A stretch of DNA of 29,337 bases, taken from NCBI GenBank assembly GCA_043800705.1, contig JAZDMS010000012.1, positions 1-29,337 on the forward strand, written 5' to 3'. The position numbers and the translations under genes were made by a program. Below, piece after piece: positions 22,670 to 29,194 of the stretch. Every line of letters starts with the position of its first letter. Position 1 is the first letter of the stretch. This DNA comes from Candidatus Altiarchaeota archaeon. GTDB taxonomy: Archaea > Altiarchaeota > Altiarchaeia > IMC4 > SCGC-AAA252-I15. The notes under the pieces were generated by a model. The model worked only from the letters and a program-made list of their open reading frames with translations. It made no database searches and was not told the origin of the DNA.

Positions 22670-24535
22670 GTGAAGTATTTCCCGTATTCCCGGGTAAGAG
22701 GAGGGCAGTCAGAGTTCCTGCAGGACTGCCATGAGGCCGTGGGAGCCGGGGCGGCTCTCGTAGCACATGCTCCCACCGGCATCGGCAAGACCGCCGCGGT
22801 CCTGTCGGCCGCGATCGAGCACGCGCTCAAGGAGCACAAGACAGTATTCTTCCTCACGCCGAAGCACACCCAGCATACCATCGCTGTCGACACGGTCAGG
22901 AGGATATCGGAGAAGCATAGTCTCCACCTCTGCCTCGTGGACATCATCGGCAAGCAGTGGATGTGCCCCCACAAGGTCCATGACCTGAGCTCGAGGGAGT
23001 TCAACGAGTTCTGTCGCACGCAGAAGAAGGACGAGCTGTGCGAATACTACAACAACACCCGCAAGGCCAAGACTACCGCGAAGGCGCAGGAGGCGATCAC
23101 GCGTATAATCGCCCGCCCGATGCACAACGAAGAGGTCCAGATGACATGCGCGCTCAACAAGCTATGCCCCTACGAGGTCCTTCTGGAGGCGGGCCGCAAG
23201 GCCGACGTCGTCGTATGCGACTATTTCCACATATTCAGCCCACCCGTTCGCAGAGCCTTCCTGAACAAGCTCGGCAAGACCGTGGAGGACTCGATACTAG
23301 TCGTCGACGAAGCCCACAACCTCCCCGACCGGATCCGCAGCATCATGAGCCACCGGATCGGGACATACTCCCTGGAGCGGGCTGCCAAGGAGGCCAGCAC
23401 CCTGAACTTCAGGCAGCTTTCGGAGGAGCTGATAGGGGTGTCGAAGTCCATGAAGAAGCTAGCAAGGAAGATAAAACCCTACCAGGAGAGGTACGTCGAC
23501 AAGCGCGAACTGGTCGACGAGGTCGTCAGCGTCTCGGGGATGGAATACAAGGAATTCGCAGCCGAGGTCGAAAGTCTCGGCGCGCAGGTGCTGAAGATCC
23601 CCGGCAGGTACCGCAGCCACGCGGCGAACATCGCCAGGTTCCTCGAGGAATGGGTCGGGGAGGACATGGGGTTCACGAGGATCATGAACAAGGACGAGCA
23701 CGTCAACATCGCGAGGAAATGCCTGGACCCCAGCCTGTCCTGTGCGGATGTTTTCTCCACAGCGCATTCGGCGATACTGATGAGCGGGACGCTGACCCCC
23801 TTGAACATGTACTCCAGCGTGCTGGGGCTGAAACCGGAGCGGACGATGGAGAGGGCCTACAGGTCGCCGTTCCCCAAGGAGAACAGGCTCACGCTCCTTG
23901 TCCCGGGGCTCACGACGAAGTTCGCTGAACGGACCCAGCACATGTACGACAAATACGTCTCCACAATCTCCTCGATGCTTACGACGATCCCGGGCAACGT
24001 CGCCGTATTCTTCCCCTCATACCATCTCCTAACCGACATCGGCCTCAGGGTGAGGACGAAGAAGGAGCTGGTCGTCGAGCGGCAGGAGATGACGAAAGAG
24101 GAGCGGCTGAAGCTGTTCCACCGCCTGGTCCAGCTTCAGGGGGCGGGCGGCGGGGCCCTCATGGCCGTCCAGGCGGGCAGCTTCTCGGAAGGCCTCGACT
24201 TCCCGGAAAACATGCTCGACGCCGTCATAATAGTCGGACTCCCCCTGGAGAGGCCTAATCTGGAGACCCAGGCATTGATCGACTACTACGACTTCAAGTT
24301 CGAGCGCGGCTGGGACTTCGGCTATATCTACCCTGCAATGAACCGTTCCCTGCAGGCCGCAGGCCGCTGCATAAGGAGCGAGACAGACCGGGGAGCCATA
24401 ATCCTCCTCGATGAGAGGTTCAAGTGGGGGAACTACAGGAAATGCTTCCCCTCTGATTTTGAGTTTATTGTGACAGAGACTCCTGAGAAGTATCTGAAGC
24501 GGTTCTTCGAAACATCAGGTATGTGCCACCTTTAG
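22670..24535 (+). CDS. xpd: XPD/Rad3/DinG family Fe-S DNA helicase
   Basis: APTGIGKT, Fe-S cysteines (CP...C...CEYY...CPYE), DEAHN, MSGTL, FFPSY, SEGLDF and QAAGRCIR motifs. Confidence 0.92.
   Translation: MKYFPYSRVRGGQSEFLQDCHEAVGAGAALVAHAPTGIGKTAAVLSAAIEHALKEHKTVFFLTPKHTQHTIAVDTVRRISEKHSLHLCLVDIIGKQWMCPHKVHDLSSREFNEFCRTQKKDELCEYYNNTRKAKTTAKAQEAITRIIARPMHNEEVQMTCALNKLCPYEVLLEAGRKADVVVCDYFHIFSPPVRRAFLNKLGKTVEDSILVVDEAHNLPDRIRSIMSHRIGTYSLERAAKEASTLNFRQLSEELIGVSKSMKKLARKIKPYQERYVDKRELVDEVVSVSGMEYKEFAAEVESLGAQVLKIPGRYRSHAANIARFLEEWVGEDMGFTRIMNKDEHVNIARKCLDPSLSCADVFSTAHSAILMSGTLTPLNMYSSVLGLKPERTMERAYRSPFPKENRLTLLVPGLTTKFAERTQHMYDKYVSTISSMLTTIPGNVAVFFPSYHLLTDIGLRVRTKKELVVERQEMTKEERLKLFHRLVQLQGAGGGALMAVQAGSFSEGLDFPENMLDAVIIVGLPLERPNLETQALIDYYDFKFERGWDFGYIYPAMNRSLQAAGRCIRSETDRGAIILLDERFKWGNYRKCFPSDFEFIVTETPEKYLKRFFETSGMCHL
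24427..24509 (+). repeat. xpd 3' end, in-gene copy of a 150-bp-offset duplication
   Basis: 67/83 nt identical to 24577-24659; 13 of 16 differences are synonymous. Confidence 0.92.
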
Positions 24536-24573
24536 GTGGCACTCGCGGCGCGTGTGCACGGAGCGAGCCGTGC
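24523..24573 (+). repeat. Structured interspersed element, copy 1 (9-bp inverted repeat + 31-bp conserved motif)
   Basis: GTGCCACCT-TT-AGGTGGCAC followed by TCGCGGCGCGTGTGCACGGAGCGAGCCGTGC, 29/31 identical to 28013-28043. Confidence 0.85.
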
Positions 24574-24576
24574 TGC

Positions 24577-24667
24577 GGGGAACTACAGGACATGCTTCCC
24601 GTCGGACTTCGAATTCATAGTGACCGAGACGCCGGAGAAATACCTGCTGAGGTTCTTCGGGGCCTAG
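24577..24667 (+). pseudogene. Displaced second copy of the xpd C-terminal coding segment
   Basis: Encodes GNYRTCFPSDFEFIVTETPEKYLLRFFGA*, versus GNYRKCFPSDFEFIVTETPEKYLKRFFETSGMCHL* in the gene; its TAG overlaps the dapF stop codon. Confidence 0.85.
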
Positions 24668-25536
24668 AATGCGTAATTGCCCTGGAAGGTCTCCTCCGCC
24701 CCCCCTATAAGATATGCCCTGCCTATGTCGCCCATGGAGCCTTCTAGCTGAACCCTTATGTCCCCGCCCCTGGCGTGAAAAAGGATCTGCTTGAAAATGT
24801 CCGCCTTCCCGTTCAGTACGGCCGCCACGGCCGATGCGCATATCCCCGTCCCGCATGCGAGGGTCTCGTCCTCGACGCCCCGTTCGAAGGTCCTTATCTT
24901 GAACTCGTTTTCTGCGACCTTCTGGACGAAGTGCGCGTTCGTCCCGCTTGGGAAAAGTATGGTGTGGTTCCTTATCAGGGCGCCGTTTCTTCTGACATCC
25001 GCCTTTTCCACATCCCTTACGAAGACGATCGCATGGGGGTTGCCCATGCCGACGGACGTTATGTCGAATTCCTCGTCTGCGATCCTTACGTGCTGGTTTA
25101 TGAACGTCTCATCCGGCTTGCCCGCCACCTGGGCCTCGCCGCGCAGTACCTGCGGCCTGCCCATGTCGACCTTCTCTTCCGTGGCCTTGTCGGCTTCGAT
25201 GGTGAGTTCGATGGTCTTGATCCCCGCCATGGTCTCGACGTCGATCTTTCGCTTCCTGAGCTTGCAGTGCTCGTACAGGTATTTGGCAAGGCATCTTATG
25301 CCGTTGCCGCACATCTCGGCCCTTGAGCCGTCGGGGTTGTAGAAGACGAAGTTCGCGTCGTGGGTCTTGGACTTCTGGGCGAATATCGCTCCGTCTGAGC
25401 CGATGCCGAAGTGCCTGTCGCAGGCCTTCTTGACGAATTCGGGCTTTCTCCCCTCAGGAATCCTCTCCTCATCCCATTCGTCCACGACTATGAAGTCGTT
25501 GCCTGTGCCATGCATCTTCGTGAATGCGATATCCAT
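24664..25536 (-). CDS. dapF: Diaminopimelate epimerase
   Basis: KMHGTGNDF, EMCGNGIRC, MGNPH and ERGVEDETLACGTG motifs. Confidence 0.95.
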   Translation of the reverse strand: MDIAFTKMHGTGNDFIVVDEWDEERIPEGRKPEFVKKACDRHFGIGSDGAIFAQKSKTHDANFVFYNPDGSRAEMCGNGIRCLAKYLYEHCKLRKRKIDVETMAGIKTIELTIEADKATEEKVDMGRPQVLRGEAQVAGKPDETFINQHVRIADEEFDITSVGMGNPHAIVFVRDVEKADVRRNGALIRNHTILFPSGTNAHFVQKVAENEFKIRTFERGVEDETLACGTGICASAVAAVLNGKADIFKQILFHARGGDIRVQLEGSMGDIGRAYLIGGAEETFQGNYAF

Positions 25537-25653
25537 GTGCGCTTACCCTGTATACTGGGCCAATATACGGTTTTAAAGTATATATTCACGGATCGGCGGG
25601 GGATCCCGTATTTTAAGCTCTGCTGCTTATTAAGGTTTCAACGGTTGGTTTAC

Positions 25654-27975
25654 ATGGTCAAATGCCTTCTGGACGCGGATTATGTGACTAAGGACGAGAA
25701 GCCCGTGATCCGGTTATTCTACAAGACCGAGGCCGGCCAGCTCATCGAGGAGGTCACGGGCTTCGAGCCATATTTCTATGCGCTTCCGAGGGCCGATATC
25801 GGCGCTTTGGAGGATTCCATGAAGGGGCTTGCAGGCGTAGTCCGCGTTGAGCGGCTCAGGCTCCTGGAGAAAGGCAAGGAAACCGACGTCTTGAAGGTAG
25901 TCCTCAGGCAGCCGAAGGACGTCCCCCAATTGAGGGATTCAGTCGCGAGGCTCCCCACGGCCGCAGGCTACAGGGAGGCCGACATACCGTTCGCACGCCG
26001 TTACATCATCGATTCTGGCATCGTCCCGATGGAGCATTCGGAGGGGGTGGAGCTGAACGTCGCAGCCGTCGACTGCGAGATCGCCGCCGACGGCGAGCCG
26101 GATGCGTCGCGCCATCCCCTATCGATGATAAGCTACGCAGACTCGAAGGGATTGAGGCGGGTGTGGACCTTCGAGCGGAAGAATCCCGGCCTCGACTACG
26201 TCGAGGTCGTCAAGGACGAGGCTGCGATGCTCAGGAAGCTCGTGGACACGGTGCGCGAGCAGGGGATAGACATACTCACCGGATACAACACCGACAACTT
26301 CGACTTCCCCTACTTCGAGGGGCGGGCCGCCAAGCTCAGGGTCGAGCTGGACTTCGGCTCCGACGGAAGCAGGCTTAGGATGGAACGCAGGGGGATGAAC
26401 AACGGGGCAAGGATCGTCGGCAGGCCTCATGTGGACATGTACCCCGTCTGCAGGCAGGTCTTCAACCTCCCCAGATACCAGCTCGAGGACGTCTACGCGA
26501 GCCTCTTCGGGGTCGAGAAGCTGGACATCAAGGTCAGCGAGATATCGGAGTTCTTCAACGGCACCGACCCGAAGAAGTTCGCGATACTCTGCGAGTACTC
26601 CCTCTCCGACGCGGACGCCACCCTCAAGATCGCGCTGAAGATGCTGCCCCTCATGTACGAGATGTCGAAGATCATCCGGCAGCCGCTGTATGAGACGTCG
26701 AGGATGCGAAGCGGCCAGCGTGTGGAGCACCTGCTCGTCGAGGAGGCCCACCGGCAGGGGGTCCTGGTCCCCAACCGCCCCTCGGAGGAGGAGTTCGACG
26801 AGCGGGAGGACGCACCCTACGAGGGGGCCTTCGTCGTAGACCCGAAGAAGGGGATACACGACAACATCGTACACTTCGACTTCACGAGCCTGTATCCGAG
26901 CATCGTCATATCCCACAACATCGACCCGACCACATTGGACTGCGAATGCTGCGAGGCATCCGCGCCGAAGGCCCCCAACGGCCACTGGTTCTGCACGAAC
27001 GCGAAGGGCTTCATACCGGAGGTCCTCGGGTGGCTTCTTCAGAAGAGGGCTGAGGTCAAGAACCGGATGACGGCCGAGGCGGACCCGGAGCGGAAGAAGA
27101 TTCTTGACGTTGAGCAGCAGGCGGTGAAGCTCCTTGCAAACAGCATGTACGGCTATTACGGCTTCCAGAGGGCCAGGTGGTACTGCAGGGAATGCGCGGA
27201 GGCAATCGCAGGCTGGGGGCGGGAATACATACAGGAGACGATCAAGGTGGCCACAGCCGAGGGTTTCGAGGTCATATACGGCGACACTGACAGCGTCTAC
27301 CTAACAAGGGACGACCTCAAGGACACGAAGGAGATCATAAGGCGGGCGATGGAGTTCCAGAAAAAGATAAACGACAGGCTGCCTGAGGCGATGGAGCTGA
27401 AGTATGAGGACTTCTACCTCAGGGGGATATTCATCACGAAGAAGAGGTACGCTGTCATAAACCAGCAGGGGAAGATGACGGTCCGCGGGCTTGAAACGCG
27501 CAGGAGGGACTGGTGCGAGGCCGCGAAAGGCACCCAGCAGAAGGTATTGGACGCGCTTCTGAAGGACCGGGACCCCGAGAAGGCCGCGAACGTCGTCAAG
27601 GAGATGGTGCAGCGGATAAAAGCCGGCAACGTCCCGCTCTCGGAGCTGGCGATCAACACGCAGATGACCCGAAACCTGGGGGGATACGTAACAGAGGGCC
27701 CGCATGTGGCGGCTGTGCGCAGGGCGATGAAGGAGGGGGTGGACTTCAAGCAGGGCGACATCATCACCTACATCGTCACGAAGAAGGGGGGCTCAAGCGG
27801 GAACATCGGCGAGAAGGCCGTCATCATCGACCATGTGAAGGAGGGGGACTACGACGCAGACTACTATATCAACAACCAGGTCCTGCCCGCGGTCATGAGG
27901 ATCCTCGAGGCCTTAGGCTACCAGGAGGACGAGATGAAAGGCAAAGGGAAACAGATGACTTTAGGTGACTGGTAG
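25654..27975 (+). CDS. polB: Archaeal family B DNA polymerase
   Basis: LDADY N-terminus, ExoI DCE, GYNTDNFD, DFTSLYPS, KLLANSMYGY, YGDTDS, KKRY, YYINNQVLPA and C-terminal PIP-like QMTLGDW; start moved to ATG 25654. Confidence 0.96.
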   Translation: MVKCLLDADYVTKDEKPVIRLFYKTEAGQLIEEVTGFEPYFYALPRADIGALEDSMKGLAGVVRVERLRLLEKGKETDVLKVVLRQPKDVPQLRDSVARLPTAAGYREADIPFARRYIIDSGIVPMEHSEGVELNVAAVDCEIAADGEPDASRHPLSMISYADSKGLRRVWTFERKNPGLDYVEVVKDEAAMLRKLVDTVREQGIDILTGYNTDNFDFPYFEGRAAKLRVELDFGSDGSRLRMERRGMNNGARIVGRPHVDMYPVCRQVFNLPRYQLEDVYASLFGVEKLDIKVSEISEFFNGTDPKKFAILCEYSLSDADATLKIALKMLPLMYEMSKIIRQPLYETSRMRSGQRVEHLLVEEAHRQGVLVPNRPSEEEFDEREDAPYEGAFVVDPKKGIHDNIVHFDFTSLYPSIVISHNIDPTTLDCECCEASAPKAPNGHWFCTNAKGFIPEVLGWLLQKRAEVKNRMTAEADPERKKILDVEQQAVKLLANSMYGYYGFQRARWYCRECAEAIAGWGREYIQETIKVATAEGFEVIYGDTDSVYLTRDDLKDTKEIIRRAMEFQKKINDRLPEAMELKYEDFYLRGIFITKKRYAVINQQGKMTVRGLETRRRDWCEAAKGTQQKVLDALLKDRDPEKAANVVKEMVQRIKAGNVPLSELAINTQMTRNLGGYVTEGPHVAAVRRAMKEGVDFKQGDIITYIVTKKGGSSGNIGEKAVIIDHVKEGDYDADYYINNQVLPAVMRILEALGYQEDEMKGKGKQMTLGDW

Positions 27976-27981
27976 TTTTTT
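27976..27981 (+). terminator. Oligo-T archaeal terminator candidate after polB
   Basis: TTTTTT immediately after the TAG stop codon. Confidence 0.45.
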
Positions 27982-27990
27982 CTAGTGCAT

Positions 27991-28043
27991 GAGGGGTCTA
28001 AGACCCCTCGATTCGCTGCGCGTGTGCACGGAGCGAGCCATGC
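27991..28043 (+). repeat. Structured interspersed element, copy 2 (9-bp inverted repeat + 31-bp conserved motif)
   Basis: GAGGGGTCT-A-AGACCCCTC, GAT, then TCGCTGCGCGTGTGCACGGAGCGAGCCATGC. Confidence 0.85.
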
Positions 28044-28091
28044 GATGATGTGTAGGGTAACGGCAAGCAGATGACTCTTGGGGATTGGTAG
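28044..28091 (+). pseudogene. Displaced second copy of the polB C-terminal coding segment
   Basis: Reads DDV*GNGKQMTLGDW*, versus DEMKGKGKQMTLGDW* in the gene; 28056-28091 matches 27940-27975 at 28/36 nt, mostly synonymous changes. Confidence 0.8.
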
Positions 28092-28139
28092 CCAAAAGTT
28101 TACAAGATGTGACGTCGATTTTTCAGATGACATATTCCC

Positions 28140-29129
28140 CTATGGTGCTGCGCTTACCGTCGGCTGTTTCGCTACGCCTAGTAGTTTGATCCTGAATTTC
28201 AGGTTTTTTCCGGCCAGTTCGGGGTTGAAGTCGAGGGTCAGGTTCTGGCTGTTGACGTCTATGACCTTCGCAGGCCCCATGAGGGTGACCACTTTCTGGC
28301 CCGTTTGGGCTTCGATCTGTATGATGATGTCGGTGTCCGTGCCGTAGACCTGGGCTGGGCCGAAGACCGTGTTCAGTGTGGCGTTCCCCTCAGGCATGTA
28401 CCTGAAGGTCACGATGTCGTTCGAGACCGCCAAGACCTTCATCGGCCACGTGAGCTCGAACTCGCTTTTGTTCTCAAGTATGAATTCCAAGCCTATAATC
28501 GGCTCTTTGCCTATGTCCTGCCTGAACTTTTCGACCGTGACGTTCTGGACGATCGGGCTCCTTTGCTGCTTCTCGACGACCTGTATGTACCTCTTGTCAG
28601 GCTGGCCGTATCCCTTCTCTGGCGAGACGAGGACTTCCTTATCCTGTCCGACCCTCATGCCTTCCACAGCCTCTTCGAAGCCGGCTATGAGGCTGCCATA
28701 CCCCAATGTGAATGTGAGCGGTTCATATGTCCTCAGAGGGTTCTGTATCCCGCTATCTTTCGCAATCGTCAGGTTCGAGGAGTCAAAGACCGTCCCGTTT
28801 TCCAGGAACCCGGTGTAGTCCACTGTCACTATGTCGTTCTTTTCCGCCAGGTTGGCGTTTTTCTCTTTTGCCGGATTTATTGTGGTCGTTGTCGTGGCCG
28901 TCTCTTTCCCAGGCTCCTGGCTCATCATGACTACCATGCCCGCGACCGCGACGAGCACGATTACCGCCCCGATTATCAGCTCCTTCGGCATGGGCTTATT
29001 TGAGTCCTTCTGGGGTGCGGCAGCATGCGTTTGCGCAATTTTCCCCTCTGCGGAGGGCTTGCTCTTGCGTTTCCTTGCCTTGCTGCCTTTTGCCGCCGCC
29101 TCGATTGGGATATTTTCCTCTTCGCCCAT
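28140..29129 (-). CDS. Membrane-anchored FKBP-type (SlyD-like) peptidyl-prolyl isomerase
   Basis: VDYTG.LENG.VFDSS, LI.GFEEA..GM.VG, P..GYG and LDFNPELAGK.L.F motifs; N-terminal basic region, transmembrane helix and Thr tract. Confidence 0.9.
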   Translation of the reverse strand: MGEEENIPIEAAAKGSKARKRKSKPSAEGKIAQTHAAAPQKDSNKPMPKELIIGAVIVLVAVAGMVVMMSQEPGKETATTTTTINPAKEKNANLAEKNDIVTVDYTGFLENGTVFDSSNLTIAKDSGIQNPLRTYEPLTFTLGYGSLIAGFEEAVEGMRVGQDKEVLVSPEKGYGQPDKRYIQVVEKQQRSPIVQNVTVEKFRQDIGKEPIIGLEFILENKSEFELTWPMKVLAVSNDIVTFRYMPEGNATLNTVFGPAQVYGTDTDIIIQIEAQTGQKVVTLMGPAKVIDVNSQNLTLDFNPELAGKNLKFRIKLLGVAKQPTVSAAP

Positions 29130-29194
29130 TTTCAGCACAAAAATAGAATACCTATTATATCATATCTCAATAAAAACGTTAGTGGTCCGGGATT

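What the first reader, a model, noticed from the sequence alone, without database searches (positions are those of the whole stretch)
24427..28091. Recurring gene-end replacement cassette: gene 3' end / hairpin / conserved 31-bp motif / recoded copy of the same 3' end, at both xpd and polB
Seen in sequence: two unrelated genes 3.5 kb apart share one architecture. Each has a perfect 9-bp inverted repeat at its end (24523-24542, which spans the xpd stop codon; 27991-28009) with different stems but a similar CT-N1-2-AG centre. Each repeat is followed by a 31-bp motif (24543-24573 and 28013-28043, 29/31 identical) and, within about 3 nt, a second copy of that gene's own last 16-30 codons. The paired copies differ mostly at synonymous sites. 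Established knowledge: integrative elements that insert into coding genes often carry a replacement 3' end. Inference: a fresh tandem duplication would be near-identical, so synonymous-biased divergence implies both copies evolved under protein-level selection, and one end probably came from a diverged relative together with the element. No integrase, transposase or reverse transcriptase is nearby and each insert is only 116-150 bp. Candidate models are a non-autonomous element that swaps gene C-termini, the scar of a larger element, or a scaffold-plus-guide RNA matching the adjacent gene. I do not recognise it as a described system.
Basis: partly seen in the sequence, partly recalled or inferred. 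Interest (0 to 1): 0.92.

Follow-up and report, generated by a model that had tools for sequence, protein, structure and literature searches.

The report
Mobile hairpin cassette replacing gene ends
Two housekeeping genes of an uncultured archaeon each carry a roughly 60-base folded mobile element that arrived with its own spare copy of the gene's end, and close relatives of this element sit inside tRNA genes as introns, which may show how such introns spread.

Summary
At xpd and polB, a structured module M of about 55-64 nt sits between two copies of the gene's last 16-28 codons. M has a variable hairpin, a linker and a terminal hairpin NNACGG-AGCGAG-CCGTNN. The same module occurs about 100 times in MAGs labelled Altiarchaeota, DPANN and Thermoplasmatota, and was not found in viral contigs. 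It is not in Rfam, and no paper in the library holds its sequence.

In 46 listed copies the right-hand repeat starts 0-10 nt after M's exact 3' end, and the repeats are 18-136 bp long. Targets are protein-gene 3' ends and tRNA genes. In both window genes, third-position GC falls sharply where the left copy begins. This suggests the left copy was imported with M.

The reverse complement of M lies in the anticodon loop of a tRNA-Arg and a tRNA-Ser with no duplication. A sister family forms a tRNA-Thr intron.

The own genome (87.6% complete) shows no reverse transcriptase, TnpB or IS200-type transposase. No integrase lies near either copy.

Best reading: M is a non-autonomous mobile element, kin to tRNA introns, that travels with a replacement gene end. 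How it is mobilised is unknown.

The parts
22670..24535 (+). xpd (Rad3/XPD helicase) as now read. Its last 36 codons come from the left repeat copy, a 13-nt tail and the first hairpin of M, with the stop TAG at 24533-24535.
   Evidence: ORF list; Pfam DEAD_2, HBB and Helicase_C_2; translation ...RFFETSGMCHL*.
24427..24509 (+). Left (imported) copy of the xpd 3' end.
   Evidence: Aligns 67/83 to 24577-24659. Third-position GC is 17/28 codons, against 23/30 and 24/30 just upstream and 0.83 for the whole gene.
24520..24573 (+). Module M, copy 1. The variable hairpin is at 24523-24542, the linker at 24543-24555, and the terminal hairpin GCACGG-AGCGAG-CCGTGC at 24556-24573.
   Evidence: Sequence; nhmmer E = 4.9e-11; pair counts on alignments A2 and A3.
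24577..24667 (+). Right (native, displaced) copy of the xpd 3' end, with its own stop. It reads ...RFFGA* and runs straight on into the convergent dapF.
   Evidence: Third-position GC is 24/28. The same-genus relative G034 ends ...RFFSGA... with no module.
24664..25536 (-). dapF (diaminopimelate epimerase), convergent with xpd. This is context only, not part of the element.
   Evidence: Pfam DAP_epimerase.
25654..27975 (+). polB (family B DNA polymerase). Its last 16 codons are the left repeat copy.
   Evidence: Pfam DNA_pol_B and DNA_pol_B_exo1; translation.
27928..27975 (+). Left copy of the polB 3' end, reading DEMKGKGKQMTLGDW*.
   Evidence: Aligns 35/48 to 28044-28091. Third-position GC is 9/15, against 28/30 and 27/30 in the 60 codons before it.
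27984..28043 (+). Module M, copy 2. The variable hairpin is at 27991-28009 and the terminal hairpin GCACGG-AGCGAG-CCATGC at 28026-28043, with one C/A mismatch.
   Evidence: Sequence; nhmmer E = 3.3e-10; alignment A3.
28044..28091 (+). Right copy of the polB 3' end, reading DDV*GNGKQMTLGDW*. It has an in-frame TAG, so it is no longer coding over its whole length.
28140..29138 (-). FKBP-type isomerase gene, convergent with polB. This is context only.
   Evidence: Pfam FKBP_C.

Best explanation
Each cassette is an insertion of a small non-autonomous mobile module, M. M is about 55-85 nt long. It has a variable hairpin, a linker and a terminal hairpin NNACGG-AGCGAG-CCGTNN, and its 3' end is exact.

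M belongs to a family spread through MAGs labelled Altiarchaeota, DPANN and Thermoplasmatota. Its reverse complement also occurs as a tRNA intron.

M does not travel alone. It moves together with the piece of the target gene that lay beside it in the donor. That piece runs from the insertion point to the gene's end, and for 5' ends it includes the promoter region.

Inferred mechanism: the unit M plus carried gene end enters a new genome by recombination between the carried copy and the chromosomal gene. This could be a Campbell-type single crossover. It could equally be a join at M's 3' end that is resolved by homology on the other side. Either route leaves: gene body, imported end, M, displaced native end. 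The gene stays intact, and any downstream gene keeps its native upstream sequence.

No enzyme is encoded in the unit. Host recombination or an unidentified trans-acting enzyme must do the work.

Shown: the anatomy, the recurrence, the folding, the composition break and the presence inside tRNA genes. Inferred: the recombination route and horizontal movement.
For: Recurrence:
- The motif, allowing up to 3 mismatches, is in 17 of 49 genomes of the order, against 1 hit for the reversed control.
- It is in 67 stretches of the genome collection and 40 metagenome stretches.
- These gave 104 distinct 84-nt copies.

Anatomy:
- 46 listed copies have a direct repeat of 18-136 bp whose right member starts 0-10 nt after CCGTNN. 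In many of them the left member abuts M's 5' end.
- The last four bases of M are not part of the repeat: matches at the four positions are 12, 14, 13 and 19 of 46.
- There is no target consensus.

Folding:
- The terminal hairpin is 99.3% paired in 92 distinct sequences. There are 82 double-change cells, against 25 in shuffles, and the two outer pairs use four pair types each.
- The first hairpin is 100% paired, with compensatory changes in 5 of its 8 pairs, in 13 sequences.
- The third copy in the own genome has GCGG/CCGC where the others have ACGG/CCGT.

Imported left copy:
- Third-position GC drops at the start of the left copy in xpd and polB and in L101.
- Differences between the copies are mostly synonymous.
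- At tRNA 5' ends the left copy brings a different upstream region.

Genes are preserved:
- At the trpE/trpG junction, three genomes have M at the same nucleotide, and both genes remain intact.

Cargo is possible:
- In L076, a 21-bp tRNA-Ser repeat lies 630 bp from M, and a 174-aa ORF with no Pfam family lies between them.

Repeated use of one site:
- At the polB end, same-genus G034 has a decayed module, while G035 and G036 have none.

Intron kinship.
Against: - No mobilising enzyme was found. The own genome has one tyrosine recombinase, on another contig, and no RT, Y1 transposase or TnpB. It is 87.6% complete.
- Presence of RT or Y1 transposase does not track presence of M across the 49 genomes.
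- No free or circular form, no donor genome and no filled-versus-empty polymorphism within one population was seen.
- The composition evidence rests on three loci of 15-28 codons each. The polB right copy is itself low in third-position GC (9/15) and carries a stop.
- Several repeats are identical or nearly so: 48/48 in L017 and 54/55 in L153. These fit a plain target-site duplication equally well.
- The strand bias is not explained. M is sense to every protein gene I looked at, but antisense to 23 of 25 tRNAs that carry a repeat.
- The inner four pairs and the loop of the terminal hairpin were fixed by the search pattern, so their constancy is partly an effect of how copies were collected.
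Confidence: 0.5

Rival explanations
1. M is an ordinary transposition product. A trans-acting enzyme makes staggered cuts 18-136 bp apart, and gap repair gives a target-site duplication. The divergence between the copies arose afterwards, through homologous exchange of the gene with relatives.
For: M is a discrete unit with both ends roughly fixed within each subfamily. Many repeats are identical or near-identical and abut M on both sides. Tandem arrays of M plus repeat exist in L100, L112 and L170.
Against: In both window genes the composition break coincides with the start of the left copy. Later exchange with random crossover points does not predict this. At tRNA 5' ends, unrelated upstream sequence of 10-100 nt lies between the left repeat and M. 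No known prokaryotic DNA transposase gives duplications this long and this variable (recalled).
Confidence: 0.2
2. The cassettes are scars of larger integrase-bearing elements, such as viruses or plasmids, that integrated into gene ends. M would be the arm next to the attachment site, left behind after the body was lost.
For: Direct repeats of a gene end with an imported copy are the signature of such elements. One copy (L076) still holds 600 bp with an ORF. One M lies about 600 nt from a tyrosine-recombinase gene, on the far side of the tRNA-Glu it targets (G046:C3).
Against: Among the copies whose loci held more than about 700 nt to the left of M, only 2 have the left repeat more than 380 nt away. 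None of 10 ORFs on the element side of M in 6 loci is an integrase. No copy was found in the viral contig collection. More than 20 different targets would need many integrases or one with no site preference.
Confidence: 0.12
3. The spread is RNA-mediated. M' is an intron RNA released by the tRNA splicing endonuclease. It is ligated to other RNA ends, copied into DNA, and recombined into the homologous gene.
For: M's exact boundary equals the 5' splice site in the two interrupted tRNAs. M' abuts the exact 3' end of an intact tRNA in 14 listed loci and the 5' end in 2. Covariation shows a folded single strand.
Against: A reverse transcriptase domain was found in only 6 of 49 genomes of the order, and in 1 of the 17 with M. 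No CCA lies at the tRNA 3'-end junctions, where the gaps are -2 to +2 nt. M is sense to protein genes but M' is sense to tRNAs, so one RNA polarity cannot explain both. The strand that folds better is M, not M': 72 against 25 of 98.
Confidence: 0.1
4. M is the scaffold of a guide RNA and the right repeat is its guide, as at the right end of TnpB/IscB transposons. The recoded left copy would then be immune to cutting.
For: The right repeat always begins directly after a structured, exactly bounded module. The left copy is recoded at synonymous sites in xpd.
Against: The own genome has no TnpB-type domain and no Y1 transposase. The module is about 55-85 nt, shorter than described scaffolds (recalled). 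Many left copies are identical to the right copy, so they would not be immune. No nuclease gene is linked to M.
Confidence: 0.03
5. The junctions are chimeric co-assemblies of two strains.
For: The window is a MAG contig. No read set that spans both junctions could be laid.
Against: The same three-part architecture, with the same module, recurs in dozens of assemblies made by other groups and in a second contig of this genome. Co-assembly cannot create a shared structured module with covarying stems.
Confidence: 0.01

Closest known systems
Archaeal protein-spliced (bulge-helix-bulge) tRNA introns, and the proposed 'intron transposition' among tRNA genes. I saw Fujishima et al. 2010 only as cited in passages of PMC4090602.
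   Same: The reverse complement of M lies in the anticodon loop of a tRNA-Arg(GCG) and a tRNA-Ser(CGA) with no duplication. A sister family is the 81-84-nt intron of tRNA-Thr(TGT). Similar intron sequences recur in different tRNAs and at different positions.
   Different: The window copies are not inside an RNA gene. They lie after protein-gene ends, on the strand opposite to the intron orientation, and between target repeats. A bulge-helix-bulge motif at the window copies was not tested. The passages I read describe no flanking duplications and no protein-gene targets.
Integrative elements that target gene ends and carry a replacement end. These include tRNA-targeting archaeal viruses and plasmids, their integrase-less derivatives (cis-mobilisable elements in bacteria; recalled), and the 1.8-kb recombinase element beside a tRNA-Thr 5' fragment in Caldiarchaeum (PMC3293823). 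For that paper I saw only the listing and the start of the abstract; the details are recalled.
   Same: There are direct repeats of the gene end. One copy is imported. The gene stays intact. tRNA genes are favoured. The same site is used repeatedly, and tandem accretion occurs.
   Different: There is no recombinase in the element or beside it. The body is only about 55-85 nt. There are more than 20 different targets and no shared core sequence. The repeat boundary lies at the exact end of a folded module.
MITEs (miniature inverted-repeat transposable elements).
   Same: M is small, non-coding, multi-copy and non-autonomous, and lies between genes.
   Different: M has no terminal inverted repeats. 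Its two ends are unlike each other. The duplications are 18-136 bp and variable, not short and fixed.
IS200/IS605-derived palindrome-associated elements and TnpB omega-RNA right ends (features recalled).
   Same: Both have a subterminal hairpin, an exact 3' end and a strand-specific fold. Flanking DNA directly follows the structured end.
   Different: Those elements make no target duplication and insert next to a fixed 4-5-nt site. No Y1 transposase or TnpB is present in the own genome, and Y1 transposase does not co-occur with M across the order.
SINE-type retroposition by target-primed reverse transcription (features recalled).
   Same: Both involve a short structured non-coding unit, an exact 3' end, variable and sometimes long target duplications, and co-mobilised upstream sequence.
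   Different: Reverse transcriptase is absent from most genomes with M. M has no tail repeat. The imported flank always matches the gene that was hit.
Diversity-generating retroelement template and variable repeats (features recalled).
   Same: Both have two copies of a gene's 3' end with a hairpin after the first copy.
   Different: The differences between copies are not confined to adenines, and there is no reverse transcriptase.

Membership tests
Archaeal bulge-helix-bulge tRNA intron | Lies inside a tRNA (or other RNA) gene, and its removal restores a complete RNA. | tested here: not met
   The window copies follow protein-gene stops and are not inside an RNA gene. Some family members do meet the feature: L011 tRNA-Arg and L077 tRNA-Ser by ARAGORN, and the L011 exons align 62/74 to an uninterrupted tRNA-Arg. 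Infernal's tRNA model reported neither of them.
Archaeal bulge-helix-bulge tRNA intron | Splice sites lie in two 3-nt bulges around a 4-bp helix. | tested here: inconclusive
   The L011 fold pairs the anticodon loop with the intron's 3' end and leaves a 3-nt bulge. The L077 fold shows no clear motif. The window copies were not tested.
Archaeal bulge-helix-bulge tRNA intron | Cut out by the splicing endonuclease and joined by the RNA ligase. | not testable with these tools
   No RNA data could be laid.
Integrase-type integrative element carrying a replacement gene end | Direct repeats of the target (attL/attR) flank the insert. | tested here: met
Integrase-type integrative element carrying a replacement gene end | The element-borne copy restores the gene. 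| tested here: met
   The xpd and polB reading frames are closed by the left copies. Intact tRNAs use the left copy in 25 listed loci.
Integrase-type integrative element carrying a replacement gene end | A recombinase gene lies inside the element. | tested here: not met
   The inserts are 116 and 150 nt. None of 26 window ORFs scanned has a mobile-element family. None of 10 neighbouring ORFs elsewhere is an integrase.
Integrase-type integrative element carrying a replacement gene end | A shared core sequence is present at the crossover in all targets of one recombinase. | tested here: not met
   There is no consensus around 45 junctions.
MITE | Terminal inverted repeats and a short target duplication of fixed length. 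| tested here: not met
   The two ends differ. The duplications are 18-136 bp.
IS200/IS605-type element or TnpB guide-RNA end | No target duplication, and a Y1 transposase or TnpB in the genome. | tested here: not met
   Duplications are present. PF01797 and PF07282 are absent from the own genome, which is 87.6% complete.
Retroposon (target-primed reverse transcription) | A reverse transcriptase is available in the genome. | tested here: not met
   PF00078 is in 6 of 49 genomes of the order, in 1 of the 17 with M, and not in the own genome.
Diversity-generating retroelement | Differences between the two repeats are confined to template adenines. | tested here: not met
   The differences involve all four bases, mostly at third codon positions.
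Any Rfam RNA family | A match to a curated covariance model. | tested here: not met
   Nothing relevant at E up to 10 in 24300-28300.

The most novel reading that the evidence does not exclude
M is the mobile DNA form of archaeal tRNA introns. It is a self-folding module of about 60-85 nt with no gene of its own. It inserts into tRNA genes and into the ends of protein genes, and it uses the adjoining piece of the target gene as its homing address. Where the local RNA can be spliced, it survives as an intron with no duplication. Elsewhere it survives only when it brings a spare gene end. If so, this would be a homology-addressed mobile element with no dedicated enzyme in cis. It would give a concrete route for intron gain in archaeal tRNA genes.
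Probability: 0.3. Interest if true: 0.9.

Novelty: new variant of a known kind. Interest (0 to 1): 0.8.

Why it matters
How protein-spliced introns reach archaeal tRNA genes is stated to be unknown. A 2014 review says so in passages I read (PMC4090602). [quoted passage not shown]

Here one sequence family is seen in three states:
- as an intron in the anticodon loop;
- as an insertion at other tRNA positions and at exact tRNA ends;
- as a cassette at protein-gene ends that carries a replacement end.

That gives a defined sequence with which the question can be tested.

It also shows that essential genes such as xpd, polB and trpE/trpG, and tRNA genes, can be invaded without loss of function because the invader brings the displaced part. 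The result is short foreign C-termini and foreign promoters in housekeeping genes. It also leaves tRNA fragments that annotation will mis-call.

Tried and rejected
Tested and dropped:
- Known RNA family: none.
- Diversity-generating retroelement: the differences are not adenine-specific.
- Stop-codon read-through: xpd copy 1, M and copy 2 are in frame with a single TAG, but the polB period is 116 nt and out of frame, so I dropped this.
- The last four bases of M as part of the target, or as a guide for it: not supported.
- Target consensus: none.
- A rule that junctions in tRNAs fall in loops: dropped. Positions 12, 28 and 30 are in stems.
- Extra non-canonical introns without duplication: virtual splicing of 105 copies gave only the repeat-type loci and L077.
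- Three 'tRNAs with 1.4-2.4-kb introns' in the own genome: these overlap long ORFs and are probably false calls.
- A close donor for the left xpd copy: the best relatives are only 68/88 and 69/85 identical.

Searches that gave nothing:
- Expression: no RNA holder was listed.
- The single DNA run covers only 27738-28051.
- Literature: four motif strings were searched anywhere in text. 4 papers hold one of them; the 2 listed are unrelated. Word searches gave no description of this element. Supplementary files were not consulted.
- No covariance model was built. No structure, complex or protein-homology job was run, because the element encodes no protein.

Denominators not printed: searches did not print how many copies they examined. 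One search counted 104 distinct copies. That count includes one spurious regex hit (L101:6506) and one probable chance hit in a Microbacterium record (L089). Several rows are the same locus in related genomes, or the same record held in two collections, so they are not independent.

Full report
**What is in the window**

The window is a whole 29.3-kb contig of a 2.0-Mb MAG with 43 contigs, 87.6% complete.

xpd (22670-24535) and polB (25654-27975) are confirmed by Pfam. Each faces a convergent gene, dapF and an FKBP isomerase respectively. None of the 26 window ORFs I scanned has a mobile-element family.

- the 9-nt inverted repeats at 24523-24542 and 27991-28009;
- the 31-nt motif, 29/31 identical, at 24543-24573 and 28013-28043;
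- a second copy of each gene's end directly after the motif.

The xpd repeat is 83 nt (24427-24509 against 24577-24659, 67/83 identical, period 150). The polB repeat is 48 nt (27928-27975 against 28044-28091, 35/48 identical, period 116).

The 22-mer core is absent from 100 shuffles and occurs only twice in the genome. A profile search finds a third, diverged copy on contig C30.

**The module**

Aligning copies shows a discrete module, M.
- In the window's subfamily it starts (A)GTGC(G/A)T.
- It forms a first hairpin whose stem sequence varies.
- It continues through TCGC-NNN-GCGTGT.
- It ends in a hairpin NNACGG-AGCGAG-CCGTNN.

In 13 close copies the first hairpin is 100% paired, with compensatory changes in 5 of its 8 pairs.

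In 92 distinct copies the terminal hairpin is 99.3% paired. Its two outer pairs use four pair types each, and there are 82 double-change cells against 25 in shuffles. The copy on C30 changes ACGG/CCGT to GCGG/CCGC.

The loop AGCGAG is complementary to the upstream CTCGCT. That pairing shows no covariation and is broken in many copies.

M folds more stably than its reverse complement in 72 of 98 copies. This could partly reflect base composition.

The inner stem and the loop were fixed by my search pattern, so their constancy is partly an effect of how the copies were collected.

**Distribution**
- With up to 3 mismatches the core is in 17 of 49 genomes of the order, 1-6 copies each. The reversed control hit once.
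- An exact degenerate pattern found 67 stretches in the species-level genome collection. The records are labelled Altiarchaeota/Altiarchaeales, Nanoarchaeota, Woesearchaeota, Iainarchaeum and Thermoplasmatota, with some loosely labelled archaea and one Microbacterium record that is probably chance.
- The same pattern found 40 metagenome stretches and no viral contigs.
- Rfam has no matching family.
- No paper in the library holds the motif strings in a relevant context.

**The architecture is general**

In 46 listed copies a direct repeat of 18-136 bp flanks M. Some of these rows are the same locus in related genomes. The right member starts 0-10 nt after CCGTNN, and the left member often abuts M's 5' end.

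The last four bases of M belong to M, not to the repeat. There is no consensus at the junction.

Protein-gene targets are 3' ends, and M is always sense to the gene. They include the trpE/trpG junction, which is hit at the same nucleotide in three genomes with both genes kept intact.

tRNA genes are the commonest target:
- 25 listed loci have an intact tRNA plus a duplicated fragment. M is antisense in 23 of them. Junctions fall at tRNA positions 12, 15, 18-19, 28, 30, 33-34 or 53.
- 16 listed loci have M's 3' end abutting an intact tRNA within -2 to +2 nt: 14 at the tRNA 3' end and 2 at the 5' end.

The own-genome copy on C30 duplicates tRNA-Gln 1-20 together with its upstream region.

**The left copy is imported**

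| Locus | Third-position GC before the left copy | Left copy | Right copy |
|---|---|---|---|
| xpd | 24/30 and 23/30 codons | 17/28 | 24/28 |
| polB | 28/30 and 27/30 codons | 9/15 | 9/15 |
| L101 (trpE/trpG) | 0.76 for the gene | 10/15 | 14/15 |

In xpd, 13 of the 16 codons that differ between the copies differ synonymously. In L101, 7 of the 9 differing codons are synonymous.

A displaced copy that drifts in place should lose its coding character faster than the copy in use. The xpd right copy instead keeps host-like codon usage. So the left copy is best read as foreign and recent.

The polB right copy is low in third-position GC and has an in-frame stop, so that site looks older. In same-genus G034 a decayed module sits at the same polB site, while G035 and G036 have none. 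The xpd site is empty in all 13 relatives examined.

At tRNA 5' ends, the sequence between the left repeat and M is an upstream region unrelated to the native one. The imported piece therefore includes regulatory DNA.

**Link to tRNA introns**

In intron mode, ARAGORN places the reverse complement of M inside a tRNA-Arg(GCG) (L011, 80 nt) and a tRNA-Ser(CGA) (L077, 87 nt). Both are at the anticodon-loop intron site. The exon meets the NNACGG end of the module within one base, and there is no duplication.

The L011 exons align end to end with an uninterrupted tRNA-Arg(GCG) of another genome, 62/74 identical. Its predicted fold pairs the anticodon loop with the intron's 3' end across a 3-nt bulge.

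Infernal's tRNA model did not report either gene. For these two genes the intron reading therefore rests on ARAGORN and the alignment.

A sister family has the same layout: a 5' hairpin GTCGG-N6-CCGAC, a linker, a second hairpin and TGCAC. It is the 81-84-nt intron of tRNA-Thr(TGT), supported by ARAGORN and by Infernal at 49-51 bits. It also lies outside genes beside tRNA fragments. That the two families are homologous is suggested by layout and short shared strings only.

**What moves it**

Nothing in cis. The own genome has one tyrosine recombinase, on another contig, and no reverse transcriptase, Y1 transposase or TnpB-type domain. Across the order, neither RT nor Y1 transposase tracks M. 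ORFs beside M are housekeeping genes.

One copy carries cargo: 600 bp with a 174-aa ORF of no known family, between a 21-bp tRNA-Ser repeat and M. One M lies about 600 nt from a recombinase gene on the far side of its tRNA.

**Reading**

The data fit a unit made of M plus the adjoining gene end. It enters a genome by recombination between the carried end and the chromosomal gene. This yields: gene, imported end, M, native end.

That reading explains four things:
- the foreign tract begins where the repeat begins;
- genes survive;
- promoters or stop codons come along with the element;
- the same sites are used again.

It does not explain how M reaches a new kind of target, what M itself contributes, or why M's strand differs between protein genes and tRNAs.

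The alternatives remain open, with the weights given in the rival explanations. They are plain transposition with long staggered cuts, scars of larger elements, and an RNA route.

**Novelty**

I found no description of this module or of this architecture. I read passages of PMC4090602 and the abstract and outline of one preprint. Supplementary files were not seen.

Gene-end replacement by integrative elements is a known kind of system. The new features here are the miniature, gene-less form and its kinship with tRNA introns.

Noticed in passing
window 24428-24667: xpd copy 1, M and copy 2 lie in one reading frame, broken only by the TAG at 24533-24535. In the polB right copy, an in-frame TAG at 28053-28055 aligns with a Lys codon (AAA) of the left copy. 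This is probably chance and decay. I ran no search for pyrrolysine machinery.
   Followed up: partly
G000:C30:300-620 (L194); also L018, L021, L024, L172, L176, L180: A second small element, ATGCACC-hairpin-GGGAAGA in tRNA sense, lies 10-40 nt upstream of several tRNA genes and directly next to M's 5' end. In the own genome it occurs only at the M-bearing tRNA-Gln locus, in two copies, plus one unrelated hit. It may be part of a longer form of the element.
   Followed up: partly
G000:C14:126605-126769, C24:1772-1945; L021, L028: Another repeated intron family, with long CTTTTTCTTTCTT/AAGAAAGAAAAAG hairpins, fills the canonical intron site of different tRNAs in this and related genomes (Ala, a tRNA called with anticodon tta, Asn, Glu). 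The introns are 89-122 nt.
   Followed up: no
G000:C24:1772-1945: ARAGORN calls a tRNA with anticodon tta ('tRNA-Stop') that carries a 99-nt intron. It may be a mis-registered tRNA or a suppressor-like gene. I did not examine it.
   Followed up: no
L100, L112, L170, L029, L176: Tandem arrays of M plus repeat occur (unit 184 nt in L100). In other loci, two or three modules of different age sit around one tRNA.
   Followed up: partly
L088, L091, L130 (a MAG labelled Thermoplasmatota): Here M is part of a repeat unit of about 240 nt. It is followed by a second hairpin with the same stem type but a different loop (CGACGG-ACCTTT-CCGTCG). This hints at a wider superfamily that my pattern could not collect.
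   Followed up: partly
L012, L030, L164 right flanks: In these loci, M's 3' end abuts a conserved structured sequence (GGGACACTCAAAA-hairpin-TTTTGGTGCG). It has no Rfam match at gathering score and may be an unannotated RNA gene.
   Followed up: no
L186 5376-6287 and 8735-8811: A cluster of about ten tRNA genes lies next to an M copy, with a group II intron domain 2.5 kb away.
   Followed up: no
L078, L099, L116 (MAGs with DPANN labels): The DPANN-type copies share a further ~100 nt of conserved, hairpin-rich sequence to the left of M. The element there may be about 200 nt long.
   Followed up: no
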